DNA of 64,000 nucleotides, from positions 36,103 to 100,102 of the forward strand of contig CAZNEE010000002.1 in assembly GCA_964572255.1 (NCBI GenBank), written 5' to 3'. A model generated the notes under the pieces. It saw only the letters and a list, made by a program, of their open reading frames with translations, was not told the origin of the DNA and did no database searches. Position numbers and translations under genes: made by a program. The first letter of the stretch is position 1, and every line of letters begins with the position of its first letter. Positions 17,943 to 64,000 of this stretch are shown here, piece after piece. The DNA is from an uncultured Planctomycetia bacterium. Lineage in GTDB: Bacteria; Omnitrophota; Gorgyraeia; Tantalellales; Tantalellaceae.

Positions 17943-20900
17943 TTATGCCATTATCAGCGTTGCTGCGACTTTGTCATATTCGGGCAGTTCATGCGGTTGG
18001 GCGGGCCTGTATGAGAGGATGCCTTTAATAAGGAGTGTAATATTATTATTAATTATCGCTTTGATATAAGATTCTACCGAAACATCATCCAAATTAAAAT
18101 GTGATCTCAGATAAAAATTCAAAAGGCTGTATATAGGAGAATCCAGCGGCGTGTCTTCATTTATATGTCTGGTCAAGAGCATTATCACATAAGTATTTAA
18201 TTGAAAGCTGTCTCGTTCTTGTTTATTCCCGGTTCTTTCGTTTAAAAGAGAATCCGTATCCACCCTCAAAAATCTGACGCCTGCTTTTGTCAGCCTCCCC
18301 AGCTGCTCTTCAGGCATTTTATTAGAAACAAGCGTGATCGTGCGGTTTTCTATATCCTTAGCTTTAGCAAGAACTTTATCAACAAACTGTCCGTGGGTTT
18401 CTGCGCTTATACTATCAAGATTAAACCTGTCAGCATACTCTACTTTATGTTTTTCAAGTTCTCCGTTAGCGAAAAATTCAGAGGTCATAAGAAACGTATA
18501 CTTTGTATCCGGATGCGTGGGTATTATTTCTTTCCCTGCCTGATCAGCATTGTCCATATTACGCTGGACCATGATCACTTTTCTAAGCCATAATAGGTTC
18601 TCGATGTTATTTCCAGAAGTCTCATCCTTTTGCATTCTGAGCTCATTTTCGTTAATATTAATGAAATTATCTATTATGCTCAACGCTTCCCGATACTTGC
18701 CTCTGTCCGCAAGGATTTTTGGTTTTTTTGCAAAAAAATCACGCACATGATCCAATGGGCTCTGCATGACTTCCATCGAATATCCGCTGGTCAGAAGAAA
18801 ACCATATTTTGCTCCGAAAATTTTTGTTTCGATATGATCTACAAATGTAATGTCTCCCTCCCTGAGCTCCTCAATGGTTTTACTGTCCATTAATTGTGCG
18901 ATCAGAACTAAACTGAAAAATTGAGGATCGGTAAGCATTTTTTTCTGCAGCTGGATCATGCTATTAGGTAAAGCTATTAATTCATCGAATAGGTCCCGCA
19001 CGTATTCATAATCATCCCCGGCATAGATCCTCGCGCAACATATCGTTTCAATGTGTGTTGCCGAACTGATACCGATACCTTCCTTTATCCTTTGATCGTC
19101 TATCTCCATGATCTCGAAAAGAACCTTTTGCACCTCTTCATCAAAATCTGAAAGGCCTTTACCGGTGATCAATCTATAATATTCTGTTACCTTCCGGTCC
19201 AGTCTTTTTAAGATATCATTTCGTTCCATTTCATCAGTCTTTACGGCTTTGCTGTTAGCCAGATTTCTTCCTAAAATAACGAATTCCCGCGTTCTTAAGA
19301 ATTCCTCCCTTCGTTCTTTCTTGGATGTTATGATCTTTTTCATCAGTTGCAACCCCTTCATATGGCCCTGTGCATACAAAAGGGTCGCCTCAACCGGATC
19401 GGTATCATATTCACACTGTATTACTTTTTCGCAATTATCCAATATCTCCAAAGCCTTTTCATATTTACCCTCGTTATTATGCAACGCCGTGATCTCCATG
19501 ATAAAATCCAAAGCCACTCTTTTGAATCCCGAGAACGCATCCCCGCTTTTTTCAGAAACTTCATTCACGCTGAATTCGGGGTTCAAAAGTGAATCAGCAT
19601 AGAATTTGAAAAATGATTTTTTGCCGCCCGATTCCATGAACCTCCTCACGCTTTCCGGATCCATCAATCTGGCTATGAAATATATCAAGAGGTGCTCGGT
19701 ACTGCTGAGTATACTTTCAGCAAAACGGCTGCTCCTGTCGCTGTTTGATACCCTCTTATACAAATCAATTACCCGCCTGTGATCCCTTTTGCCGAACAGC
19801 AGGGAAACGCAAACTCTGCGAAATGTTTTCTCGGAGCCCAAAGCGATCATGCCATCCGCTAAACGCTCAAGCCCATACGCATTGACCGCTTGTAAGATCT
19901 GTCCGTATGCTGCCCGGGCTTCTTCGCCCGTAGCGACATGGACTTTTTCGCCGGTCTCATCCCAAATCTCATTTATCCTTCTTTCAAGCGCTTCGATCTC
20001 TCCCTCAGCATCGATCTTATCCTCTTCCCGACCTGTCTCAGGGAGTTCTTTAGGAATACTGCTTTTCAGAAGAAATGTAAACTCTGTTTCTCTTTCTTCC
20101 AAGGTCTTTCTTTGAGGGGCCCCCTCCTCAAGCGACCCCAGATCATTCCGGATGTATGCTATGTTCGCTTTGGCCATGCCCTCCGCCAAAGAATATTGGC
20201 CGACAGAGATGTAGTGCTCGATAAAACGCTTTTGAATATCCAGCAGGTCATCGTAAATGCTATTAATAAAAGACATCAGTTCCGGTCCCAAGAGACCCTT
20301 CTGGAACTCATCTCCCCCATCATGGATGCTTTTGAATAAATACTGCGGCAATGTAACATTTTGTCCTTTCATGCCCTCCACTGTGGCCGGGTCTATCATT
20401 TTGGCTATAAAATAAATCGCTAAAAATTCGCGCTTCGCATCGAACAAGAGATAGTTGCGGAAAAAACTTTCTGCCGGCAGATCTTTCCGGGACTTAAAAA
20501 ATTGCAGGATCTCTTCAAAATCCCTATCGCCAAAAAGTCTTGAATAAAGAAGCATGATGTGGCTCTGTTGCCCCACTGACAAATTCTCTTCATCGTATAT
20601 TTTCCTGAGCATGTTCGTCCGCCTGAACGCTATCTGTGATTTCTCACTGAAAGGATCGCTGTAATCAATAAACTCGTAATCATACATCCACGCATTGAAC
20701 AACAATCTTTCAAATCCGTGCTGATCCACTTCTTTCGCCAATTTATATCTATGGCTCTTTTCACTTTTATCCACTTTCAAATATCCTTCTTCCGCCAGCT
20801 GTTTCAGATCCCTTCTTGTCTGTGAATCCGGATGTTTTTCAGGCAAGGGAGCAAAGCCGAGTAATTCTTTTGCCCCATCATAGGCCTTATGGTATTCATC

Positions 20901-22988
20901 TATAGTAAATCCGCTTTCTTTACTTTTGTTATGCAGCGTTTCATCCGTCAAGATCAGCATCAAAGCGTCTTCTGCGCTTCTGCCGGGCTTTGTCCTTCCG
21001 TCTTTTTTCCCGGCCAGTTTTGCCGCTGTTTCCCTCCTCTTTATAGAACGGATATAACCTACAACCTGCCTGCCCTTCACACGTGTGGGCGATATGTCGC
21101 TTATGGTTCTTACAAATTCTTCATAATGTGCCGCCCATGATATCTTATCTTTGCCTGTACCTACATTCACGATCGCTCTAAAAGCGGCTTCCGTTTCCCC
21201 TTTTGCGCCCTCCGCTATCATCCGCAATAACTCGAGATCCAGCATTTTGGGGTCAATTTTTCCGTTCTTTACCGCATTGGCGATTTGTTTTAACTCTTCA
21301 TAAGGAGACCTTATCACAACCTCGTAACTCCCGCCGTCAAGGCTTCCTACCCAATCTTTATTTACCTTTAAACCCTTTTTTCTGATCGCTTTAAAAAGTT
21401 CCGTTATCTTTTGCACTGAATACCTATCAATAGAAGCCGCTTCGATGAACGCAATTAACGCATCTTTCTTCGCATTCTTAAGCCCTTCTATTTCTTTTGA
21501 TAAATGATCCCCGAATGATGACCATAAATATGTTCTAAAGAGCTCCATCTTGCGCCTGGCGACAAGTCCAAAGACCCAAGGTGCCGTTGTGGATTCTTCA
21601 ATAAGTCCTATAATCTGATCGAAATTCTTTAGCCCTATAAGCTTTTTATCCAATAAAACCTGCAGCATGGGGATAATATCTCCATCAACACTGCACTTAT
21701 TTTTTTGAGCGATCTCTTCCAAGCCAAAATCAACAGCGCTTTGAGCCCTCCCGATTATTTTCGCCACACGTTCCGTGATCTCTTCCTTTCCGTCCCCTTC
21801 CGCATAATCGCGTGTCAGAAGATTTGTATCCAAGTTTTGAATAGAGTATTTCTTAGGGTGTAAAACAGGCCTTTCTGTGCCGTCCAATAGTTCGTTTATT
21901 AATCCGGGGGTCCTTTCAGGTCCTACAGCGCTAAGGTAACGTTCATAAATTTCATTAACGGGATCCCCGGCACCTTCGCTAAATCTCAAAACTGGACAAC
22001 CTAACATAACTCCGATTTCATGAGAAAGCTTATCTTTTATTCGATCTTTTTCCAGGCGAGCGAAGGCAAGATTATTTGTCAGGCTGTTTATTACAGCTGC
22101 TGATAGGAAAATATGCACCGCATTATTGCTTGAATGATACAAGGGTGTGATTTGCCTTTCCTCTCCGTTCTCTGCGATAACCAAGACCGGAACTTTCCTG
22201 AGTTTTATTTCCACTTCTTCAGTAATCGGCACAATGAAACATTTTCTTTCTTCGAGCGGAATCTGCCCGTTATTATTTATCCCTATCTTAGCTTTTTCAA
22301 TGATATCTCTAACCATTGCCGGATAATCAAATCCAAGCTCATTTGGGGAATATATTGTTATGTCTTCCGACTCATGTGCCCACCTTATGATCGCATCGAT
22401 GCCTTCTTCATGCTGGATATATCTATTAATAGCTTTTTCATCTTTTTCCTGTCTTTCCGGAAGTGTTTTCGTAAGCCGATTATTGTTTTCATATTCCTGC
22501 TCGGTATAAATGCCTTTTAATTTAAAAGCTCCTTCTTCATCTTGCTTCAGTGAAAATACCGCATAATATGTGCGTGTGCCGTGCTCATCCTTTATCCTGC
22601 ACATAAGGCGGATTCCTTCGTCGACAGGCTTTGCTTCCTTATAGAAAAATTGGATATCCGCGGGTTGGTATATTGTCTGTTCTTTTATTATTCGCTTTTC
22701 GATGATATCTTCAAGGGCGGAAAATTGGACTATCGATCCCTCATGGTTTATCAACTTCTCTTGGTTCGTTGAGAAGAACTCTCGTAGTTGGGCTTCGAGC
22801 GCTATTTTTATTCTTCCGATATCCTTGTGCTCGATACCCAGAAGATCATTGCACACAGATGCCGTAGAAAGATCATTCTCTGAAATCGAGTTATTAAAGG
22901 GTACGCCGTAAGAGATGTCAAAAATTGTTGTATTCAGAAAAAAGCAGAATATGAGAATTGCACGGCTTACTCTGCGTCTAAAGCTCAT
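17943..22988 (-). CDS. Giant secreted protein (1681 aa) of unknown function, with at least three ~200-aa internal repeats.
   Basis: Uninterrupted 5-kb ORF. N-terminal signal peptide. Repeats carry L(L/I)YFIA(K/R)(L/M)(M/I)DP and GKY(E/R)(K/E)AL(E/S)I(L/I)DN motifs. AT-rich relative to its flanks. I recognised no catalytic motif (no HExxH). Confidence 0.7.
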   Translation of the reverse strand: MSFRRRVSRAILIFCFFLNTTIFDISYGVPFNNSISENDLSTASVCNDLLGIEHKDIGRIKIALEAQLREFFSTNQEKLINHEGSIVQFSALEDIIEKRIIKEQTIYQPADIQFFYKEAKPVDEGIRLMCRIKDEHGTRTYYAVFSLKQDEEGAFKLKGIYTEQEYENNNRLTKTLPERQEKDEKAINRYIQHEEGIDAIIRWAHESEDITIYSPNELGFDYPAMVRDIIEKAKIGINNNGQIPLEERKCFIVPITEEVEIKLRKVPVLVIAENGEERQITPLYHSSNNAVHIFLSAAVINSLTNNLAFARLEKDRIKDKLSHEIGVMLGCPVLRFSEGAGDPVNEIYERYLSAVGPERTPGLINELLDGTERPVLHPKKYSIQNLDTNLLTRDYAEGDGKEEITERVAKIIGRAQSAVDFGLEEIAQKNKCSVDGDIIPMLQVLLDKKLIGLKNFDQIIGLIEESTTAPWVFGLVARRKMELFRTYLWSSFGDHLSKEIEGLKNAKKDALIAFIEAASIDRYSVQKITELFKAIRKKGLKVNKDWVGSLDGGSYEVVIRSPYEELKQIANAVKNGKIDPKMLDLELLRMIAEGAKGETEAAFRAIVNVGTGKDKISWAAHYEEFVRTISDISPTRVKGRQVVGYIRSIKRRETAAKLAGKKDGRTKPGRSAEDALMLILTDETLHNKSKESGFTIDEYHKAYDGAKELLGFAPLPEKHPDSQTRRDLKQLAEEGYLKVDKSEKSHRYKLAKEVDQHGFERLLFNAWMYDYEFIDYSDPFSEKSQIAFRRTNMLRKIYDEENLSVGQQSHIMLLYSRLFGDRDFEEILQFFKSRKDLPAESFFRNYLLFDAKREFLAIYFIAKMIDPATVEGMKGQNVTLPQYLFKSIHDGGDEFQKGLLGPELMSFINSIYDDLLDIQKRFIEHYISVGQYSLAEGMAKANIAYIRNDLGSLEEGAPQRKTLEERETEFTFLLKSSIPKELPETGREEDKIDAEGEIEALERRINEIWDETGEKVHVATGEEARAAYGQILQAVNAYGLERLADGMIALGSEKTFRRVCVSLLFGKRDHRRVIDLYKRVSNSDRSSRFAESILSSTEHLLIYFIARLMDPESVRRFMESGGKKSFFKFYADSLLNPEFSVNEVSEKSGDAFSGFKRVALDFIMEITALHNNEGKYEKALEILDNCEKVIQCEYDTDPVEATLLYAQGHMKGLQLMKKIITSKKERREEFLRTREFVILGRNLANSKAVKTDEMERNDILKRLDRKVTEYYRLITGKGLSDFDEEVQKVLFEIMEIDDQRIKEGIGISSATHIETICCARIYAGDDYEYVRDLFDELIALPNSMIQLQKKMLTDPQFFSLVLIAQLMDSKTIEELREGDITFVDHIETKIFGAKYGFLLTSGYSMEVMQSPLDHVRDFFAKKPKILADRGKYREALSIIDNFININENELRMQKDETSGNNIENLLWLRKVIMVQRNMDNADQAGKEIIPTHPDTKYTFLMTSEFFANGELEKHKVEYADRFNLDSISAETHGQFVDKVLAKAKDIENRTITLVSNKMPEEQLGRLTKAGVRFLRVDTDSLLNERTGNKQERDSFQLNTYVIMLLTRHINEDTPLDSPIYSLLNFYLRSHFNLDDVSVESYIKAIINNNITLLIKGILSYRPAQPHELPEYDKVAATLIMA

Positions 22989-23154
22989 TAAAATTCACCT
23001 ACTCGAGTTAGTTAACATGATAAGTTAATTAGAAGTTAAATAATAAAAAACGTAGTTATTGTAATATATATGCGCTGTTATGTCAACAAAAATTTATATT
23101 TTTAATAGAAAAATCTATATGCCATTTATTTAAAATAGTTTAGGATGTTAGGTT

Positions 23155-23667: not shown

Positions 23668-24375
23668 TCAAAAAAGAACTTTTGCTTTGATGCCCATAAC
23701 GTTATAGTCTGTCCATTTATCAACTTTTGCCTTGCTGGCCTGCCAAAGATAAAAAACATCCACGTTGAGATGCCTGAATATTTTTGATGTCAAGCCGGCA
23801 TAAAGCCGGTTTCTATTTATTTTTTCACCGTAAAAATCCAAAAATATTTCATCCGCCACATACGGCTGGATCTTATAGTCCGTCCATTTCCATGGAAATT
23901 TAACCGTTAGCTTATCTCTGTACCGCCATTCGTCATCCTTATTTTCGCGCATACGATATTCCAGGCGGCTCCTGTTGCTGAGATCAAGGTCATACAATTT
24001 CCATTTCACTGTCGCATTAGCGTGTGGCCTGTTCTCTTCCTTCCATTCATCTTCTTTCTTTTCGTAAACCTGACGATAATTCAAACCGAAATGAAGGCCA
24101 TCCGTTACCTTGAGATCCAGTCCGCCATCCGTATGCGTATAATATATTTCCGAAATATTATCTCCAAACCTTAATTCTTCTTCGACCCCGATCTTCCAAC
24201 GGTCATTTAATTTTATTTCGATGCCATCGGTATTCCAAAGCTGCCAGTCACCGTCATTGAAGGAATAACAATCATAAGATAGGATAAAAACGGTTGCAAT
24301 TAAACCGACGAATAAAACACTTTTCTTCACTGACCCCACTTTCTTCTTTCTTGTTTTATTTGTTAACTTTCCCAA
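23668..24375 (-). CDS. Putative outer-membrane beta-barrel protein, DUF2490-like.
   Basis: Signal/anchor region, a W/Y-rich alternating pattern (WQLWNTDGIEIKL...EEELRFGD), and a C-terminal aromatic residue (F). Confidence 0.45.
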   Translation of the reverse strand: MGKLTNKTRKKKVGSVKKSVLFVGLIATVFILSYDCYSFNDGDWQLWNTDGIEIKLNDRWKIGVEEELRFGDNISEIYYTHTDGGLDLKVTDGLHFGLNYRQVYEKKEDEWKEENRPHANATVKWKLYDLDLSNRSRLEYRMRENKDDEWRYRDKLTVKFPWKWTDYKIQPYVADEIFLDFYGEKINRNRLYAGLTSKIFRHLNVDVFYLWQASKAKVDKWTDYNVMGIKAKVLF

Positions 24376-24830
24376 TCGAATCCTATGCTTTCAGAATCAT
24401 GCGGTATCCGGCCTTCATCAGGATTTTTCGGATCATAGCTTTCGGTGGTATGATAAAACAAACAAACGGGCTTGTCACCAAGCACTTTGTATCCATGAGC
24501 GACCATTTTGGGAATATAAATAAGCATGGGATCATCTCCTCCGGCGATGATCATTTGAATATTTCCTTTTGTTTCTGAATCGTCCCGCATGTCATATAAA
24601 ACCACTTGCGCTTCGCCTTTAGCGACAAACCACATATCATCTTGCTTCTTATGGTAGTGGAAGGCTTTAATAATTCCCGGTTTTGTCTCGGTGTAAGATG
24701 TTTGTTTTACACACTTGAAGAACGGATCGTTCTCTTTGAGGATCTCGGCAAAAAATCCCCGGTCATCATTGTGCTTTACTATTTTTTTTATTTGCACACC
24801 TTTGATCATTTTGCTCTCTATTGCTGTCAT
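24363..24830 (-). CDS. RmlC-like cupin (dTDP-sugar 3,5-epimerase / 3,4-ketoisomerase fold).
   Basis: DDRGFF, FHYHKKQDDMWFV and VAHGY motifs typical of the RmlC/FdtA cupin family. 155 aa. Confidence 0.7.
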   Translation of the reverse strand: MTAIESKMIKGVQIKKIVKHNDDRGFFAEILKENDPFFKCVKQTSYTETKPGIIKAFHYHKKQDDMWFVAKGEAQVVLYDMRDDSETKGNIQMIIAGGDDPMLIYIPKMVAHGYKVLGDKPVCLFYHTTESYDPKNPDEGRIPHDSESIGFDWES

Positions 24831-58150: not shown

Positions 58151-61100
58151 TTAAAAGATCTGTGCAGTATTTCCTTCCACTTGCACTTCTCCTTTAAATG
58201 CGTCCGGATCGAATTTTTTCTTTTTCCCGGGGCCGAATCCAACTCCCTGAAGCTGGACAATATCGCTCATATCGTCACCCAAAGCAGCTATAGGTACCGG
58301 GAATTCAAGCATAGGAGCGTCAACGATCTTTGCATTCTGACCGCTGTCACTTTCCTGTGTCCAGTTCAGCTGCAGGAACGGTGCCTCGCCCGCGACCGGC
58401 GGTTCTGGAACCACGGGTGTGGGCGGTTCTTCCCCGCATATCCTGCATTCCCTGAGCATTGGAGGCGCGCCCTGGGGCGGCATCCAGATATTCTCAAAAT
58501 CCCAGCATGCAAATGTTGATTGCTGTTTCATTTGGGAATCATCCTTTGCATCGATCCCGCAAAGATCACCGCTATCGGAATCATCCAGCCCTGCATTATG
58601 TGTCGGCGTCTGCAGCCAATAGCAGGAAGAATACGGACCTCCATAGTCATAACCGACAAATCCGCCTGCGGAGCTGCTCGTTATCACTTCTCCCGTTGAA
58701 TAACAATTGGTCGTCGCTGTTCCGCCGCCGTTATACCCGCCGTTCTCATTAAGACCGAACAGTCCTCCTATAGCCCATCCACTTTGAACTGTCACATCCC
58801 CTGTAGCATAGCAATCCGCAACCGGAGTTCTGTCGTTATAACCTACCAATCCGCCAAAATAGGTGCCATCGCAACTGCCGAACACGTCCCCGGTAGCATA
58901 GGACCTGGTTATCTCGGAATTATATGTTTTGCCGACCAGTCCGCCGAATCTGTAAAGACAGCAGCATTCTTCCTCATGCTTTACATCCGCAGTTGAATGA
59001 GAACAATATATCTCAGAATCGTTAAGCCTTCCGACCAGTCCGCCGACGTTATACTCGCCTCTTACGACCCCTCCTGAGGAACATCCCAGGATCCGGCTTT
59101 CTTCCTGTACATCGCCTGCCAAAGCCCCTACATGCGTATCCCCTGTTATATCCGCATTTACAAGATCTACTTTTCCGACCGTAGCATCTACGAGAAGACC
59201 GAAAAGACCGACATTCTCTTCGTACGGCCTGTTTATGTAGAGGTTGCTTATAGTATAGCAGTCGCCGCAGAAAAATCCGGTGAACGGGCCGGTTTCATCG
59301 TCGTCACCCGTATTATCCCCGATGGGCTCAAATCCCAGATAGAACATTTGACCGTTCTGGCCGTTTTGTCCGTTTAGATCAAGGGAAGCTACACAATTAT
59401 AGCCGTACGGATTCCAGGTTTTGGTCGCGCTTGCGTCAATATCATTTGCCAGTTTGAAACTCGCATCAAGCGCGTATTTCATGAACTGTAGTTCATTCAC
59501 GTTGTGTATCAGGAAGTAGCATGCGTCAGGGCCTTCGCACCCTACTCCGCCGTCCGGCAGATGCACCAGCATGTCCTCCCATACAAGATGCGGATAGCTT
59601 CCGACAGTCCAAAGACCCAGAAAATCCCAGCCTTCAAAAGTTGCTTCCTGCTGCATCTCGGTGTTATTTTTCGCTGTGACCCCGGTAAGATCACCGGGAT
59701 CGCCGGAATCCTGCAGGCCTGCATTATGTGCCGGTGTCTGGAGCCAGTAGCATGAAGAATATGGCCCGCCGTAGTTTTCATAACCTACAAAACCTCCGAC
59801 ATTCCAGTTTCCGGTTACCTCTCCGGTAGAATAACATCTCGTTATATTGTAACTGGAAGAGGTATAGCCGTAACCTATAAAACCTCCGACATTATTATCA
59901 CCGTTAACATTTCCCTGTGCGTAACAATCCCGGATAGAAGTTTCATAATTATAGCCGATAAGCCCGCCTATTTCTCCTTGTGTGCAATCTTCATCAACAA
60001 GAGGGAATATTGTGCCTTCACTGCCGCTCTGGGCTGTTTGTCCTGGCGTGTTTATATTTCCTTTTGCATACGATCTGCGTATATCCGAATAACTGGCATG
60101 GCCGACAAGGCCTCCGACATCGTAATCGCCGAAAACCTCCCCGGTCGCACCGGAATGCCTGATATCGGATGAACCGAGAGAACCCACGAGCCCTCCGACG
60201 TACCTATATCCTTTCACCTTGCCCGTCGCATATGAACTCTCGACAGTTGAATCCTCACAATAACCCACTAGGCCCCCGCGATAATCGCGATCGCAATAAT
60301 ATGGATCATATCCTTCATAAACAACATTCGGCAGGACATCGCCCGTTGCGTGACAGCAGGTTATATCGCCGTATTCATTATAACCCACAAGGCCTCCGGC
60401 ATAATCCTGGTCAAAATACACATTCCCAATAGCATAACAATCTATTATAGGCGACGCATAATTATACCCTATAAGGCCTCCGGCATAATTCCCTCCATCC
60501 AACCACCGTGGGCCATACACGTCCCCTGTAGCATAAGAACGGATGATCGTACACATGGCTTCGTAGTTCTGCCCCACAAGGCCGCCTATATATTCTCCTC
60601 CGCGCACTTTGCCTGTTGCGTGGGAATCGGTGATCGTGCCTCCGTAATTATAACCTACCAATCCGCCGACCGCTTGAGCATAATCACCCAGGACCTCACC
60701 GGTAGCATAACAGTTTGTTATCGTTGATGAATTTTCATTACCGCCAACAAGGCCTCCAAGTCCAAATTGATAGTCATAACTCATGCCTTCAACTTTTCCC
60801 GTAGCATGAGAATCTGTGATAGAGGAACTTACATTACGACCCACGAGACCGCCGCCGTATTCTCCATACACTTCAACTGCGCCTGTGGCATAACAATTAA
60901 TGATCGTATCTTCAGCTTCAAAATTTCCTCCTACTAAGCCTCCTACGCAGTCATCGCCTGATACATCGCCCGAGGCATTTGAACCGGTAATTGTGGACCC
61001 TTCGTTATGCCCTATCAATCCTCCGACATAATCACCAGTAGAGCTTACATCTCCCTGAGCAGAACAATTTGTGATCGTGGATCCATCTTCATTATATCCT

Positions 61101-62818
61101 ATGAGTCCTCCAACATAATCAGCATTTCCTTCACCATAATCTCCAATGACCTCGGCATTAGTATGGACATTGGTTATGGGAGTATCTTCATTACGACCCA
61201 CCAAAGCTCCAACATATCTGCCGCCGGTTACATTTCCCTCTAATGTAAGATCTTTTATCCAGGCAGCCTCATCGGTTTGAGCGAATAACCCCACATAATA
61301 GGTAAAGGGCCTGTCGATAGTGAAATTACTTATGGTTTTATTGTTCCCGTCAAAACTTCCTTCAAAATCGCCTCCGATCGGCTCAAATCCCTGGCCGCCG
61401 TTCCAATCCTCTGTCGCAATCGCATCGATGTTATTAGCAAGCTTATAATGCGCATTATCATCGTCATCCACTGCCTGGAGTCCATTTATATCAAAGATCA
61501 AATATGGATCTCCCATGGTCCCTGCGCCCACTTCTCTAACTAACTCGGCATGATAATTTGAGCGGACCGTATCAACGCTGAAAGCTTTTGTGTTGTCTGA
61601 TTCATATTCTATATCAGCAGTATTTGAAGAGTTCAATTCCAAAAGCCCCACATTTGTTATATCCCCGTCAAGCGCTGAATCTTCTCCGGCAAATAATGTT
61701 AGATCAAAACCCCCGCCAGCAAGATCATTGCCCTCCATATCGATAAATCCGTCATTATCTGCATCGCTGTCCGCATTAAGCGTTGTATCGCCCGTCATGT
61801 TTACGTTACCGCCAAGTTCGATATCTTCCACATCATTGTACACACCCGCAATGCTGCCTGCCAGGGTGAGCGCACCATCAAGGTTTTCGAAAAGCGAATC
61901 ACCGACAACGGTCTTTCCGCCAAGCAAACACGATGCGCCTTTCTCAGTCAGAGTTTCAGCTTCCAAAGTCCCAAGGCTTACAACAGCTCCATCAGTATCG
62001 ATATTAACGGTATTTGCTCTTACGAATCCTTCCAAGTTGATAGCTTTAGTAAATATCTCACCGATGCTTTCCGCTTTTAAGATTACAACTCCGCCTTCGG
62101 CATCAATTGTGCCCGTACTTTTTATCTGATCAGTTATCGGGTTGCCTTCATAGTCTTTAATGCCAGAGGCAACTTTTTTATCTATAGCAACAGAGATAAG
62201 ACCACCACCAGAGATATCAAGTTTAACGGCATCACCGGATGCAAGAACTATCTTGCCGATAGGCGCTGTTATTATTCCCTTGTTTTCGATGGCGCCTGCG
62301 ATCAATACACCGAACCCGCCGTCATGGATCTTGATGTCTCCTTCGTTAAGCAATAACTTCTCAGCCTGATCTTCGGTAATCTTCTGAAAAAGATGATTAC
62401 CGCTTAAGAAATCAGAATTGAGTATATCCCGCGTAGACAGAATAAGACCCGCCGCATCGATATTAGCTGCAGGCCCCACATAAATGCCGGAAGGGTTAAC
62501 GAGAATAAATACACCGTTACAACTAAGTCCTCCCATTAACTGACTAGCGGAATCGCCCAACACCCTGTTGAGGATCTCGCTGTCAACGGACGGCAATTTT
62601 ACTACTACCGTTTCATTTTCCATGATGTCAAAAGACGAGTAATTGACAATAGCATTGTCACTCGCCTCGATGACCATGGTCGTCGGATCGGTATACTCGA
62701 TATTCGCCTCTCCGGATACCACCTCCTCGACATTGGGAAGCGGGTAGGTGTTGTACGTACACGTAAATGTAAGCACCAGCACCAGTGAAATCATTTTTGT
62801 TAATTTTGTGATCTTCAT
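58151..62818 (-). CDS. TpsA-type exoprotein: N-terminal TPS secretion domain followed by dozens of ~27-aa GLUG-like repeats in two large duplicated blocks.
   Basis: N-terminal TPS domain (ILNRVLGDSASQLMGGLSCNGVFILVNPSGIYVGPAANIDAAGLILSTRDI, NPNGI-like). Repeats NCYATG.V.G..YVGGLVG.N..S.ITDSHATGKV. Each block ends with SCYWLQTP.HNAGL.DS...TF.(G/C)WDF. GGAGGA Shine-Dalgarno. Confidence 0.8.
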   Translation of the reverse strand: MKITKLTKMISLVLVLTFTCTYNTYPLPNVEEVVSGEANIEYTDPTTMVIEASDNAIVNYSSFDIMENETVVVKLPSVDSEILNRVLGDSASQLMGGLSCNGVFILVNPSGIYVGPAANIDAAGLILSTRDILNSDFLSGNHLFQKITEDQAEKLLLNEGDIKIHDGGFGVLIAGAIENKGIITAPIGKIVLASGDAVKLDISGGGLISVAIDKKVASGIKDYEGNPITDQIKSTGTIDAEGGVVILKAESIGEIFTKAINLEGFVRANTVNIDTDGAVVSLGTLEAETLTEKGASCLLGGKTVVGDSLFENLDGALTLAGSIAGVYNDVEDIELGGNVNMTGDTTLNADSDADNDGFIDMEGNDLAGGGFDLTLFAGEDSALDGDITNVGLLELNSSNTADIEYESDNTKAFSVDTVRSNYHAELVREVGAGTMGDPYLIFDINGLQAVDDDDNAHYKLANNIDAIATEDWNGGQGFEPIGGDFEGSFDGNNKTISNFTIDRPFTYYVGLFAQTDEAAWIKDLTLEGNVTGGRYVGALVGRNEDTPITNVHTNAEVIGDYGEGNADYVGGLIGYNEDGSTITNCSAQGDVSSTGDYVGGLIGHNEGSTITGSNASGDVSGDDCVGGLVGGNFEAEDTIINCYATGAVEVYGEYGGGLVGRNVSSSITDSHATGKVEGMSYDYQFGLGGLVGGNENSSTITNCYATGEVLGDYAQAVGGLVGYNYGGTITDSHATGKVRGGEYIGGLVGQNYEAMCTIIRSYATGDVYGPRWLDGGNYAGGLIGYNYASPIIDCYAIGNVYFDQDYAGGLVGYNEYGDITCCHATGDVLPNVVYEGYDPYYCDRDYRGGLVGYCEDSTVESSYATGKVKGYRYVGGLVGSLGSSDIRHSGATGEVFGDYDVGGLVGHASYSDIRRSYAKGNINTPGQTAQSGSEGTIFPLVDEDCTQGEIGGLIGYNYETSIRDCYAQGNVNGDNNVGGFIGYGYTSSSYNITRCYSTGEVTGNWNVGGFVGYENYGGPYSSCYWLQTPAHNAGLQDSGDPGDLTGVTAKNNTEMQQEATFEGWDFLGLWTVGSYPHLVWEDMLVHLPDGGVGCEGPDACYFLIHNVNELQFMKYALDASFKLANDIDASATKTWNPYGYNCVASLDLNGQNGQNGQMFYLGFEPIGDNTGDDDETGPFTGFFCGDCYTISNLYINRPYEENVGLFGLLVDATVGKVDLVNADITGDTHVGALAGDVQEESRILGCSSGGVVRGEYNVGGLVGRLNDSEIYCSHSTADVKHEEECCCLYRFGGLVGKTYNSEITRSYATGDVFGSCDGTYFGGLVGYNDRTPVADCYATGDVTVQSGWAIGGLFGLNENGGYNGGGTATTNCYSTGEVITSSSAGGFVGYDYGGPYSSCYWLQTPTHNAGLDDSDSGDLCGIDAKDDSQMKQQSTFACWDFENIWMPPQGAPPMLRECRICGEEPPTPVVPEPPVAGEAPFLQLNWTQESDSGQNAKIVDAPMLEFPVPIAALGDDMSDIVQLQGVGFGPGKKKKFDPDAFKGEVQVEGNTAQIF

Positions 62819-62885: not shown

Positions 62886-63446
62886 AACTTAATACCAAAG
62901 TATATTTTTAAAGCTAAAACTATTTAGCTCTTCTAAACATAATAATCTCTGTAATAAAAATAATTGTTTCATTCTCTCACCTTCGGTAACTGACTGCCCT
63001 GGCCCTAATGGCTTTAGGCTCTTTAGTTTTGCGCCCCTTGTTTTCACAAGGTTTGCCTTTATCGAGCAAGAGCTCGATAAAGCTGCTGAATTATAAAAAA
63101 GCGATTTCTTTCTATCTTTTGTATCTACTAAAAGTATATCATATTTTACTTAAATGTAAAGATTTGCAACTATTTTTTTATATTTTTCTTAATTTTGTTT
63201 TTTTTAACAATTATCTATAACATCTTCACTTCCGCGAAAAAGAACTATACTTGCAAGCCTTTATAAGCCAAAGGCTTTTGAAAAGAGAGTAGTTAGAACC
63301 CTAACGAAATTTTTAAAAAAAGCTAACTTTTTTTAAAAAAATTTTTTGTTGCGATATTTTTTGACTTTTCCTTTGCATGTCTATTTTTTAAAAATCATTG
63401 ATACATAAATTTAGGTTAAGATATAAAATATCTACATATTTAGCTC

Positions 63447-63475
63447 TTGAATTCTCTCTCATTTTAGGTTATAAT
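63447..63475 (+). promoter_or_regulatory. Candidate sigma70 promoter for the plus-strand gene at 63520.
   Basis: TTGAAT-17 nt-TATAAT. A GGGG Shine-Dalgarno lies about 8 nt before the ATG. Confidence 0.4.
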
Positions 63476-63519
63476 TAGAACATAAAATAGTTAGATACTG
63501 TATTTTTGGGGCGCAAATT

Positions 63520-63996
63520 ATGAAGAAGATAATCACTTTAATAACTATTATTTCCTTATTGTGTACTCCCTGCTTTGCTCAGGGATTAATGGGTATCCCT
63601 GCATCCGTTACGACGCCTACTGAGTTTGTATCGTGGCTGAAGGACGGATTTTATTATCATTTGGAAGCTAATGATGATTGGCAAAGCCCTGAAGAAACTA
63701 TTCGCTTCAAAAGCGGCGACTGCGAGGACTACGCCCTTTTGGCCTCCGCGTTCCTGTCAAATATCGGTTATACGGAAAATTACGTAATCATTGTTAAGTT
63801 CTCAGGATTATACACAAGACATGCCATATGCGTTTTTCGGGAAAAGAACGGCTCTTACAGTTTTATCTCTAACAAGAAAATGTTCCGGACAGGCCAAAAA
63901 AGCGTCAGATCCGCGATCAACAAATATTACCCGGATTGGGAAGAGATCACATTTTCAACTCACAGCAAGAAATACTTCAAGACAATCCATCGTTAA
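63520..63996 (+). CDS. Secreted transglutaminase-like cysteine-peptidase-fold protein (BTLCP-like).
   Basis: Signal peptide. GDCEDYALLASAFL core Cys motif and a downstream His (RHAICVF). 158 aa. Confidence 0.6.
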   Translation: MKKIITLITIISLLCTPCFAQGLMGIPASVTTPTEFVSWLKDGFYYHLEANDDWQSPEETIRFKSGDCEDYALLASAFLSNIGYTENYVIIVKFSGLYTRHAICVFREKNGSYSFISNKKMFRTGQKSVRSAINKYYPDWEEITFSTHSKKYFKTIHR

Positions 63997-64000
63997 TTTT

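What the first reader, a model, noticed from the sequence alone, without database searches (positions are those of the whole stretch)
17943..22988. 1681-aa secreted protein of unknown function with three ~200-aa repeats, in a compositionally distinct AT-rich segment
This is a single uninterrupted 5-kb ORF with a signal peptide and an alpha-helical, K/E-rich composition. I recognised no catalytic signature (no HExxH, P-loop or Cys cluster).

At least three modules share L(L/I)YFIA(K/R)(L/M)(M/I)DP...GKY(E/R)(K/E)AL(E/S)I(L/I)DN, which suggests a repeated helical-bundle unit. Sampled GC is about 30-40%, against about 50-60% in the flanking transporter and efflux genes. It has its own AT-rich upstream region and is flanked by signalling genes (cNMP-binding protein, DUF2490 outer-membrane protein, PAS kinase).

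It could be a secreted effector, toxin or adhesin of a novel family, possibly horizontally acquired.
Basis: partly seen in the sequence, partly recalled or inferred. Interest (0 to 1): 0.7.

Follow-up and report, generated by a model that had tools for sequence, protein, structure and literature searches.

The report
Omnitrophota exported cargo-bracketing protein family
This 1681-aa gene is real and belongs to a large, undescribed protein family, seen so far only in Candidatus Omnitrophota bacteria, in which a secretion-type signal and two conserved end modules bracket an interchangeable middle; here the middle is a helical scaffold, but in relatives it is intact glycolytic and other normally cytoplasmic enzymes, which is hard to explain.

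Summary
The ORF (17943-22988, minus strand, 1681 aa) is real. It has its own promoter-like site, a Shine-Dalgarno sequence and a Sec-type signal peptide. The three ~230-aa repeats are confirmed, though only ~20% identical. The claim of distinct composition or horizontal transfer is refuted: GC is 41.9% against 43.9% for the window, and codon usage is typical.

No Pfam, NCBIfam, PADLOC or PDB relative exists. The protein belongs to a family of at least 327 cluster representatives; every named or placed member is Candidatus Omnitrophota. All share a signal peptide, a ~370-aa N-cap and a junction motif (DLDxNLLTRDYAAG), then 0 to ~5,170 aa of variable cargo and a terminal C-cap. The N-cap has no PDB fold match, and Ser287 is 98.6% conserved.

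Cargo in relatives includes transaldolase, FBP aldolase, PGK, PFK, PPDK, phosphoglycerate mutase, AlaDH, GDH, MurB, CsrA and receiver domains. This member carries a unique ~260-aa segment, a winged-helix-like unit and three TPR-like helical units.

The most likely role is an exported carrier whose caps direct export, positioning or processing of the cargo. A membrane-tethered cytoplasmic role is a serious rival. The family is undescribed and the function unproven.

The parts
23058..23086 (-). Promoter-like site, TTGACA-17 nt-TACAAT (11 of 12 matches), about 70 bp upstream of the start codon
   Evidence: consensus scan only; sequence
22995..23000 (-). Shine-Dalgarno-like AGGTGA, 6 nt upstream of the ATG at 22988
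   Evidence: Read directly
17943..22988 (-). Complete coding sequence, 1681 aa plus stop codon (stop at 17943-17945)
   Evidence: The identical protein (P0001) is on 8 contigs read, with NCBI, JGI, ENA and Logan listed as sources
22905..22988 (-). Predicted Sec/SPase I signal peptide, aa 1-28: n-region RRR, a 12-residue h-region, and a c-region NTTIFDISYG with small residues at -3 and -1
   Evidence: 141 of 152 family members share the pattern. The sequence is unusually conserved (F16, S9, N19, D24). This rests on pattern analysis only; SignalP and DeepTMHMM were not available
21789..22877 (-). N-cap module, about aa 38-400. It is a mixed alpha/beta domain with motifs GIEHKDIGRIK, RTYYAVF, HSSNNAVHIF and HEIGVMLG
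   Evidence: Alignment A1. Profile search finds 327 representatives. AF2 model of the minimal homologue P0028 has pLDDT 86. No PDB fold or sequence match
22128..22136 (-). His285-Ser286-Ser287. Ser287 is the best-conserved residue of the family (140 of 142); His285 is conserved in 128 of 142. This is a candidate catalytic or self-processing site
   Evidence: In the model the equivalent residues lie in a 3-residue turn between two beta-strands. The function is inferred, not tested
21795..21839 (-). Junction motif, aa 384-398 (QNLDTNLLTRDYAEG; family consensus VDLDxNLLTRDYAAG). It is the boundary after which the cargo is inserted
   Evidence: R393 94%, D394 89%, L386 89%. It lies in a low-confidence linker of the model.
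21009..21788 (-). Cargo segment 1, aa 401-660. It appears helical by eye and is unique to this protein
   Evidence: (for aa 441-660): no relative even within the family
20718..21008 (-). Cargo segment 2, aa 661-757: a ~95-aa winged-helix-like unit (PGKSPEDAL...TARRDL...Y-L)
   Evidence: The unit recurs in 43 of 154 family members, often in several copies. PDB profile hits are marginal, several of them to wHTH proteins, E = 0.03-0.9. A homologous unit in P0007 matches HTH_DeoR at 23.4 bits against a cut-off of 21
19998..20717 (-). Cargo repeat unit R1, aa 758-997 (all-alpha, with a TPR-like end)
19212..19997 (-). Cargo repeat unit R2, aa 998-1259. It was modelled directly: 13 helices, pLDDT 89.9, pTM 0.85
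18549..19211 (-). Cargo repeat unit R3, aa 1260-1480
17946..18548 (-). C-cap module of type C1, aa 1481-1681 (the HMM envelope starts at aa 1438). It has a flavodoxin/Rossmann-like beta-alpha core plus a helical part, and ends at the conserved terminus ...YDKVAATLIMA

Best explanation
The ORF encodes a member of a large, uncurated protein family in which two conserved end modules bracket a variable middle. Every named or genome-placed member comes from Candidatus Omnitrophota.

Architecture, from N- to C-terminus:
- a cleavable Sec-type signal peptide;
- a ~370-aa N-cap whose near-invariant Ser, His, Glu, Asn and Arg-Asp residues suggest an active or self-processing site;
- a conserved junction motif in a flexible linker;
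- a freely exchangeable cargo of 0 to about 5,170 aa;
- a C-cap at the very C-terminus.

Proposed mechanism (inferred): the caps are a common chassis. The signal peptide sends the protein across the inner membrane. The caps then position, assemble or proteolytically process whatever lies between them, in the periplasm or at the cell surface.

In this member the cargo is not an enzyme. It is a unique ~260-aa segment, a winged-helix-like unit and three TPR-like alpha-helical units. This protein is therefore most likely an exported binding or scaffolding member of the family.

Shown: the gene, the family, the architecture, the cargo diversity and the folds.
Inferred: export, the chassis role, and catalysis or processing by the N-cap.
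For: HOMOLOGY AT THE ENDS ONLY
Homologues match only aa 1-400 and aa ~1480-1681.

FAMILY SIZE AND LAYOUT
- The N-cap profile finds 327 representatives, 166 of them at E <= 1e-30. In nearly all, the module starts at residue 1.
- 95 of 154 members have the C1 cap, and in 86 it ends within 5 aa of the terminus.
- Insert length runs continuously from 0 to 5,168 aa. Minimal members P0028, P0029, P0061 and P0097 (606-677 aa) have no cargo.

CARGO
It includes genuine, high-scoring enzymes and regulators. The transaldolase keeps its catalytic motifs.

SIGNAL PEPTIDE
141 of 152 members show the pattern, with small residues at -3 and -1. 148 of 154 have no further TM-like segment.

CONSERVATION
S287 98.6%, N345 97%, G326 96%, Y141 95%, R393 94%, E324 92%, H285 90%.

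MODELS
- Minimal N+C protein: pLDDT 86.
- Repeat unit of the target: pLDDT 90.
- The repeat unit is TPR-like or helical-repeat.

DISTRIBUTION
- All named or placed members are Omnitrophota.
- There are several paralogues per genome or metagenome.

LITERATURE
Omnitrophota long proteins with a signal peptide and multi-enzyme content are reported (bioRxiv 10.64898/2026.06.07.730766; 10.1101/2023.11.21.568195).
Against: - Export rests only on sequence-pattern analysis; no SignalP or DeepTMHMM run and no experiment.
- Much of the family's cargo is typical of the cytoplasm. This includes ATP- and NAD(P)-dependent enzymes, CsrA, receiver domains and HTH domains, as well as the wHTH-like unit in this protein. 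That is hard to reconcile with a periplasmic or extracellular location.
- The N-cap has no detectable relative, so catalysis or processing is inferred from conservation alone.
- The pTM of the N+C model is only 0.59, so it is unknown whether the caps contact each other.
- No conserved partner gene, such as a transporter, sortase or secretion component, was found next to family members.
- Some complete members use a different C-cap.
Confidence: 0.45

Rival explanations
1. Cytoplasmic-face scaffold or metabolon. The N-terminal hydrophobic helix is an uncleaved membrane anchor or assembly helix, and the body stays in the cytoplasm. The caps oligomerise or tether the cargo at the membrane. The target would then be a regulatory or scaffolding member there.
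For: - Cargo is overwhelmingly cytoplasm-type and cofactor-dependent: PGK, PFK, PfkB, PPDK, AlaDH, GDH, 2-HADH, MurB, CsrA, REC and LuxR/DeoR HTH.
- The target itself has a wHTH-like unit.
- The transaldolase is catalytically intact.
- The signal sequence is far more conserved than ordinary signal peptides, which suggests a specific interaction.
- AF2 models residues 2-28 as one continuous helix.
Against: - The positive charges lie N-terminal to the hydrophobic core. The core is only about 12 residues and is followed by polar N/T/S/D. Small residues sit at -3 and -1. This is the classic cleavable Sec pattern and predicts N-in/C-out topology.
- There is no second TM segment to bring the body back inside in 148 of 154 members.
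- The 2026 preprint reports DeepTMHMM signal-peptide calls for Omnitrophota multi-enzyme long proteins (10.64898/2026.06.07.730766).
Confidence: 0.3
2. Secreted effector or toxin. The caps form a delivery device comparable to the arms of MARTX toxins, and the cargo acts in or on a prey or host cell, where ATP and NAD are available.
For: - Signal peptide.
- Conserved arms flank mosaic cargo.
- A possible processing site in the N-cap and a conserved linear motif just before the cargo.
- Omnitrophota are proposed predators or parasites, and their giant proteins carry similar enzyme domains (10.1101/2023.11.21.568195; PMC10066038).
Against: - No toxin, pore-forming, RTX, CPD or adhesin domain.
- No immunity-like or dedicated secretion gene recurs nearby.
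- The cargo is housekeeping-type enzymes rather than known toxic activities.
- Family genes sit among housekeeping genes, and the target has native codon usage.
Confidence: 0.12
3. Domain-insertion enzyme family. N-cap and C-cap together form one ancestral ~600-aa enzyme, as in the minimal members. The cargo is domains inserted into a permissive loop to couple or regulate that enzyme's activity. The target would be a version regulated by helical repeats.
For: - Minimal cap-only members exist.
- Insertion always occurs at the same junction.
- An active-site-like conservation pattern in the N-cap.
- Several enzyme cargoes (PGK, AlaDH, 2-HADH) are hinge enzymes whose N- and C-termini lie close together. 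This point rests on my own knowledge of those folds.
Against: - Cargo diversity and size (up to about 5,170 aa, and tandem N-caps in P0005) are extreme for a regulatory insertion.
- An alternative, non-homologous C-cap replaces C1 in about 25 members.
- The N+C model gives no confident inter-module packing (pTM 0.59).
Confidence: 0.1
4. Horizontally acquired, compositionally foreign island gene.
For: GC is slightly lower than the window mean (41.9% against 43.9%) and the upstream intergenic region is AT-rich.
Against: - GC3 is 43.8%, within the neighbours' range, though at its low end.
- Codon-usage divergence is 0.029, among the lowest of 20 ORFs.
- The deficit is largest at codon position 2.
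- No mobility genes flank the ORF.
- The family is native to Omnitrophota and has many paralogues.
Confidence: 0.03

Closest known systems
Omnitrophota giant 'multi-enzyme metabolic cluster' proteins / Archaeovorins (West-Roberts et al. 2023, bioRxiv 10.1101/2023.11.21.568195; 2026 preprint 10.64898/2026.06.07.730766)
   Same: - Same phylum.
- N-terminal signal peptide.
- Long polypeptides tiled with cytoplasm-type enzyme domains (FBP aldolase, PPDK, methyltransferases, receiver domains) and helical-repeat scaffolding.
- The same unresolved question of inside or outside.
   Different: - Those proteins are at least 10,000-147,000 aa and mostly carry many TM helices. This family is 600-5,800 aa, and 148 of 154 members have no further TM-like segment.
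- C39 or S8 peptidase domains were reported near their N-termini. None is detected here.
- In the passages I searched, neither paper mentions a conserved N-cap, junction motif or C-cap bracket, or cap-only minimal proteins.
- Whether the giants start with this N-cap was not tested.
MARTX toxins (multifunctional autoprocessing RTX toxins of Vibrio and relatives)
   Same: The architectural logic is the same: conserved N- and C-terminal arms flank a mosaic, strain-variable set of central cargo domains. Release there depends on a built-in processing activity. (From my own knowledge of the family.)
   Different: - No RTX or glycine-rich repeats, no CPD (Peptidase_C80) and no homology.
- MARTX toxins leave through a type I system without a Sec signal peptide, whereas this family has a Sec-type signal.
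- The cargo here is housekeeping-type enzymes or helical scaffolds, not cytotoxic effectors.
Type IX secretion cargo proteins (signal peptide + functional domain + conserved C-terminal sorting domain)
   Same: An N-terminal Sec signal, a variable functional middle, and a conserved module that must sit at the extreme C-terminus.
   Different: - The T9SS CTD is a beta-sandwich of about 80-100 aa recognised by Pfam and NCBIfam models.
- This family also has a large conserved N-cap, which T9SS cargo lacks.
TPR / alpha-solenoid repeat scaffolds
   Same: - The target's three ~230-aa units are all-alpha.
- The unit profile hits kinesin-light-chain-type TPR at E = 1.3e-6 over the GKYEKAL motif.
   Different: - Only the last ~60 residues of each unit are TPR-like.
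- The rest of the 13-helix unit, including the YFIAxxMDP motif, has no named relative.
- Pfam TPR models do not reach threshold on the target.

Membership tests
Omnitrophota N-cap/C-cap bracket family (defined here) | N-cap module at the N-terminus, directly after the signal peptide | tested here: met
   The target's aa 1-439 match the N-cap profile end to end
Omnitrophota N-cap/C-cap bracket family (defined here) | Junction motif (V/I)DLDxNLLTRDYAAG at the end of the N-cap | tested here: met
   The target has QNLDTNLLTRDYAEG at aa 384-398
Omnitrophota N-cap/C-cap bracket family (defined here) | C-cap ending at the extreme C-terminus with ...(A/S)xL(I/L)x(A) as the last residues | tested here: met
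   The target's aa 1438-1681 match the C1 profile, and the protein ends ...KVAATLIMA
Omnitrophota N-cap/C-cap bracket family (defined here) | Near-invariant N-cap residues (Y141, H285, S287, E324, G326, N345, R393, D394) | tested here: met
   All are present in the target
MARTX toxins | RTX-type or glycine-rich repeats in the conserved arms | tested here: not met
   No such Pfam hit on the target at E <= 1. The arms are globular alpha/beta modules
MARTX toxins | Cysteine protease domain (CPD, Peptidase_C80) for autoprocessing | tested here: not met
   No Pfam or NCBIfam hit. There is no conserved Cys in the N-cap
MARTX toxins | Variable central effector modules between conserved N and C arms | tested here: met
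   This is an architectural analogy only
Type IX secretion cargo | C-terminal beta-sandwich sorting domain (Por_Secre_tail, TIGR04183-type) | tested here: not met
   No Pfam or NCBIfam hit. The C-cap model is beta-alpha-beta plus helices
Type V autotransporters / two-partner secretion | C-terminal beta-barrel translocator or N-terminal TPS domain | tested here: not met
   No such Pfam hit on the target. A separate TPS/GLUG protein lies elsewhere in the window
Polymorphic toxin systems | Variable C-terminal toxin domain followed by a cognate immunity gene | tested here: not met
   The variable part is internal, not C-terminal. The downstream genes are unrelated transporters or housekeeping genes
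Archaeovorin-type giant proteins | Giant size (at least 10,000-30,000 aa) with many TM helices | tested here: not met
   The target is 1681 aa and has no TM-like segment beyond the signal peptide
Archaeovorin-type giant proteins | C39 or S8 peptidase domain near the N-terminus | tested here: not met
   No Pfam hit
Archaeovorin-type giant proteins | Shared N-terminal module with this family | not tested
The largest family member seen is 5,827 aa
TPR repeat proteins | Tandem 34-residue helix-turn-helix repeats detectable by TPR profiles | tested here: inconclusive
Winged-helix DNA-binding domains | wHTH fold with a recognition helix and a beta-wing | tested here: inconclusive
   PDB profile hits are only marginal, E = 0.03-0.9, to AspA, Sso10a and RosR. 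A homologous unit in P0007 reaches the HTH_DeoR cut-off, 23.4 against 21 bits. The unit was not modelled
Sec/SPase I-dependent exported proteins | A positive n-region, a 7-15-residue h-region, and small residues at -3 and -1 | tested here: met
   (pattern analysis). No dedicated predictor or experiment was available
Tat substrates | Conserved twin-arginine motif (S/T)RRxFLK | tested here: not met
   The target has RRR, but the family shows no conserved arginine pair: column 6 is K in 56 and R in 53 members, and the N-termini listed mostly lack RR
Horizontally transferred genomic island | Deviant GC or codon usage and flanking mobility genes | tested here: not met

The most novel reading that the evidence does not exclude
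Omnitrophota use a dedicated, lineage-specific carrier to move intact central-metabolism enzymes and regulators out of the cytoplasm. The carrier consists of a conserved signal peptide, an N-cap with a Ser/His processing site, and a C-cap. The enzymes would include those for glycolysis, the pentose-phosphate pathway and amino-acid dehydrogenation. They would end up in an extracytoplasmic compartment, or in or on a prey or host cell, so that part of metabolism runs outside the cytoplasm. The target would be the scaffold-type member that organises such cargo through its TPR-like units.
Probability: 0.15. Interest if true: 0.9.

Novelty: categorically new. Interest (0 to 1): 0.68.

Why it matters
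**A reusable protein chassis.** If the architecture means what it appears to mean, Omnitrophota have a reusable protein chassis. Almost any domain can be placed between its caps, from a single transaldolase to more than 5,000 aa of mixed content.

**A tractable version of an open question.** Two recent studies of Omnitrophota giant proteins left one question open: are their enzyme-laden polypeptides inside or outside the cell, and are they processed? This family poses the same question in proteins of 600-2,000 aa, which can be expressed and assayed. It offers defined caps, a defined junction and a single candidate nucleophile (Ser287).

**Annotation.** Some members are currently named simply "transaldolase family protein", "pyruvate, phosphate dikinase" or "class II fructose-bisphosphate aldolase". 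Metabolic reconstructions of this uncultured phylum may therefore count signal-peptide-bearing, capped enzymes as ordinary cytoplasmic ones.

**Curation.** The N-cap, the two C-caps, the ~95-aa unit and the ~230-aa helical unit have no match in Pfam or NCBIfam.

Tried and rejected
- **Direct sequence searches.** Pfam, NCBIfam, PADLOC and PDB searches of the whole protein gave nothing.
- **Word-indexed search with the central 996 aa.** It returned only the query itself.
- **PDB profile searches.** N-cap, C1 and C2 profiles gave nothing significant.
- **Signal-peptide c-region as a copy of the junction motif.** A MAFFT alignment of P0005's tandem N-caps suggested a shared N-x4-D-x3-G spacing. 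A PSSM test gave only 10% of N-termini above the 95th percentile of controls, so the idea was rejected.
- **Homology between the C1 and C2 caps.** hhalign probability was 1.4%, so this was rejected.
- **A conserved partner gene next to family members.** None was found in six contexts.
- **Housekeeping operon context.** The PGK-cargo member is not in a gap-pgk-tpi operon, and its giant neighbours are not family members.
- **Paralogues in the window.** None.
- **Tat signal.** No arginine pair is conserved across the family.
- **Lipoprotein signal.** The Cys in the h-region is not invariant and has no lipobox context.
- **Zincin, SGNH or alpha/beta-hydrolase reading of the N-cap motifs.** I considered this from memory. 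HEIG lacks the second His, and there is no DxxH block. No fold match supports it.
- **First genome scan with the 20-sequence alignment.** It failed for lack of a conserved 7-mer. The narrower alignment recovered only 10-11 loci per collection, so copy numbers per genome are lower bounds.
Full report
**1. The observation**

A promoter-like TTGACA-17-TACAAT lies about 70 bp upstream, and an AGGTGA Shine-Dalgarno sequence lies 6 nt before the ATG.

The identical protein occurs on eight contigs read (longest 498 kb), with NCBI, JGI, ENA and Logan listed as sources. It is therefore not an assembly artefact.

The neighbours are as described:
- upstream: a cNMP-binding protein, DUF2490, an RmlC-like protein and a PAS histidine kinase;
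- downstream: a CitMHS/TrkA-C transporter, CorA and an RND efflux operon.

The compositional claim fails.
- ORF GC is 41.9%, against 43.9% for the window and 41-50% for 19 other long ORFs.
- GC3 is 43.8%, low within the neighbours' range.
- Synonymous codon divergence from the other ORFs is 0.029, among the lowest of 20.
- The small deficit is largest at codon position 2, so it mainly reflects the K/E/I/L-rich composition.

Nothing indicates horizontal acquisition.

**2. The repeats**

Plain self-BLASTP sees nothing. Three other results confirm the repeats:
- tblastn of the middle region finds a shifted self-match of 461 aa at 19.7% identity, E = 2e-8;
- pairwise segment comparisons give E = 1e-7 to 6e-6;
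- profiles iterated over the family link the three units at E = 1e-39 to 1e-58.

The units span about aa 758-997, 998-1259 and 1260-1480.

**3. What the protein belongs to**

Pfam, NCBIfam, PADLOC and PDB sequence searches are empty. The large protein search returned 17 relatives. They match the query only at its two ends, aa 1-400 and aa ~1480-1681, and their middles are unrelated.

A profile of the N-terminal module, searched exhaustively, finds 327 cluster representatives. Of these, 166 score E <= 1e-30. In nearly all, the module starts at residue 1. Lengths run from fragments to 5,827 aa.

- 95 carry the C-terminal module, and in 86 it ends within 5 aa of the C-terminus with a conserved ...(A/S)xL(I/L)(S/F/A)A tail;
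- the distance between the two modules runs continuously from zero to 5,168 aa;
- four complete "minimal" proteins of 606-677 aa consist of the two modules alone;
- roughly two dozen members without this C-cap share a different ~180-aa cap ending ...MHEAARRFAEAA, which is not detectably homologous to the first (hhalign probability 1.4%).

Every named or genome-placed member is Candidatus Omnitrophota, or an Omnitrophota-like MAG auto-labelled Planctomycetia. One sits on a closed 1.43-Mb chromosome. At least two paralogues occur in one MAG and three in one metagenome. The window's own taxonomy was not tested directly; it is inferred from this distribution.

**4. The caps**

*Signal peptide.* 141 of 152 members begin with two or three K/R residues, a hydrophobic core of about 12 residues, and a polar stretch. 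Position -3 is A/S/V and position -1 is G/A/S. This is the Sec/SPase I pattern. 148 of 154 have no further TM-like segment. The signal is unusually conserved in sequence (F16 in 110 of 124 members; also S9, N19 and D24). I cannot explain that.

*N-cap.* The AF2 model of minimal member P0028 (61-sequence alignment, pLDDT 86, pTM 0.59) shows these elements:
- an N-terminal helix;
- a disordered linker;
- a mixed alpha/beta N-cap;
- a low-confidence linker holding the junction motif;
- a long helix;
- a C-cap with a beta-alpha-beta core and a helical subdomain.

Across 142 N-caps the best-conserved residues are S287 (98.6%), N345 (97%), G326 (96%), Y141 (95%), R393 (94%), E324 (92%), H285 (90%) and D394 (89%). 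That looks more like a functional site than a purely structural core. His285-x-Ser287 sits in a three-residue turn between two strands in the model. From memory, this resembles the His-x-Ser/Thr sites of cis-autoproteolytic domains such as GAIN/GPS and Nup98. That is a lead, not a test.

*Junction.* The most conserved linear motif, (V/I)DLDxNLLTRDYAAG, lies in a flexible linker immediately before the cargo.

**5. The cargo**

Pfam scans of relatives give strong, genuine hits between the caps:
- central carbon metabolism: transaldolase, class II FBP aldolase, PGK, PFK, PfkB kinase, 6PGL/GlcN6P isomerase, phosphoglycerate mutase, pyruvate phosphate dikinase;
- dehydrogenases: alanine dehydrogenase (five members), glutamate dehydrogenase, D-2-hydroxyacid dehydrogenase;
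- other enzymes: NAD-dependent sugar epimerase, MurB, methyltransferases, adenosine deaminase;
- regulators: CsrA, receiver domains, LuxR/DeoR HTH.

The transaldolase of P0002 aligns end to end with solved transaldolases and keeps the lysine, TTNP and E-x-D motifs. NCBI names some members simply after their cargo. Most cargo in the 40 members scanned has no Pfam hit.

Two family-specific cargo modules recur:
- the ~230-aa helical unit, in 16-19 of 154 members, with one to six copies each;
- a ~95-aa unit, in 43 of 154 members, often in several copies. It gives only marginal PDB hits, several of them to winged-helix proteins, and reaches the HTH_DeoR cut-off in P0007.

The target's cargo is a unique ~260-aa segment (aa 401-660), one ~95-aa unit (aa 661-757) and three helical units.

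**6. Genomic context**

No gene recurs next to family members. They sit among unrelated housekeeping genes. The PGK-cargo member is not in a gap-pgk-tpi operon.

**7. Mechanism**

*Shown:* a conserved chassis (signal peptide, N-cap, junction, C-cap) brackets interchangeable cargo.

*Inferred:* the signal peptide exports the protein, and the caps then position, assemble or process the cargo. I put this at about 0.45. The target would be a non-enzymatic binding or scaffold member.

The main rival, at about 0.3, is that the body stays on the cytoplasmic side. The cargo is overwhelmingly cytoplasm-type and cofactor-dependent, and the "signal" is too conserved to be a generic one. Against this rival stand the charge distribution, the short core and the -3/-1 pattern.

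Other readings are less likely: a prey- or host-directed effector (about 0.12) and a domain-insertion enzyme (about 0.1). A horizontally acquired island is refuted.

Two recent preprints describe the same paradox for Omnitrophota proteins of 10,000 aa or more: multi-enzyme content together with a signal peptide. In the passages I searched they do not describe this bracket family.

**8. Comparison and novelty**

MARTX toxins share the architectural logic of conserved arms flanking mosaic cargo. T9SS cargo shares a signal peptide plus an obligatory C-terminal module. Every homology-defining feature of both was tested and not met.

The family is absent from Pfam and NCBIfam, and neither cap has a recognisable solved fold. 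Its typical cargo, intact central-metabolism enzymes behind a secretion-type signal, has no counterpart in known cargo systems. I therefore rate the family as categorically new, with two caveats: function and localisation are unproven, and AFDB-scale fold searches could not be run.

**9. Limits**

- No model coordinates were accessible, so clustering of the conserved residues in three dimensions was not checked.
- The N+C model is of a homologue 28-40% identical to the target's caps, not of the target itself.
- Copy numbers per genome are lower bounds.
- The taxonomic restriction rests on the named or placed subset of members.

Noticed in passing
Homologues P0015, P0016, P0041, P0044, P0051, P0099, P0111, P0127 and others (last ~180 aa); not in the window: A second C-terminal cap, ending ...LIEQMHEAARRFAEAA, replaces the C1 cap in roughly two dozen family members. 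It is not detectably homologous to C1 (hhalign probability 1.4%) and has no PDB relative.
   Followed up: partly
L016 1-11859 (ENA ERZ909605 contig) and L014 6001-19764: Family member P0015 directly follows murG, a murC/murB fusion, ddl, ftsQ and ftsA. That is the slot where ftsZ normally lies in a dcw cluster. P0015 and P0010, which have different cargo and different C-caps, are followed by the same genes (TatD/radical-SAM, Rce1-like CPBP protease, DUF362/Fer4, IF-2B, AIRS, TsaE), so they appear to occupy one syntenic slot.
   Followed up: no
P0005 / L006 853-4881: One member carries three tandem N-caps followed by a C-cap and no other cargo. P0020, P0037, P0048, P0064 and P0075 also show two to four N-cap stretches. 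The N-cap can therefore itself be cargo.
   Followed up: partly
window 58151-62818 (-): A 1555-aa protein with an N-terminal TPS secretion domain and many GLUG repeats. It looks like a two-partner-secretion (TpsA-like) exoprotein and is unrelated to the target.
   Followed up: no
window 1-64000: All 18 ORFs of 400 aa or more are on the minus strand. GC skew is negative in all but one of the 64 one-kb windows, and the cumulative skew falls almost monotonically. This suggests a single replichore with strongly co-oriented genes. The last kilobase (63001-64000) drops to 33.9% GC.
   Followed up: no
L013 1-7870 (ENA ERZ28669879 contig): The PGK-cargo family member is preceded on the same strand by two very large genes. 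One is more than 2,911 aa with no Pfam hit. The other is 1,380 aa with HD and PRK hits. Both lack the N-cap and C-cap. A gene of more than 2,354 aa with faint TPR hits lies downstream on the opposite strand.
   Followed up: partly
window 22905-22988 (-) and family N-termini: The predicted signal peptide is conserved at the sequence level across a family that is otherwise only 25-40% identical (consensus K/R-I-I-S-x-I-V-L-x-C-F-L-F-N-T-A-V-S-D-L-A-F-G). That is atypical for Sec signal peptides and hints at a specific recognition step.
   Followed up: partly
window 24363-24830 (-): The 155-aa ORF between DUF2490 and the PAS kinase matches both dTDP-4-dehydrorhamnose 3,5-epimerase and the Polysacc_synt_C Pfam model. 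It overlaps the DUF2490 ORF by 13 bp.
   Followed up: no
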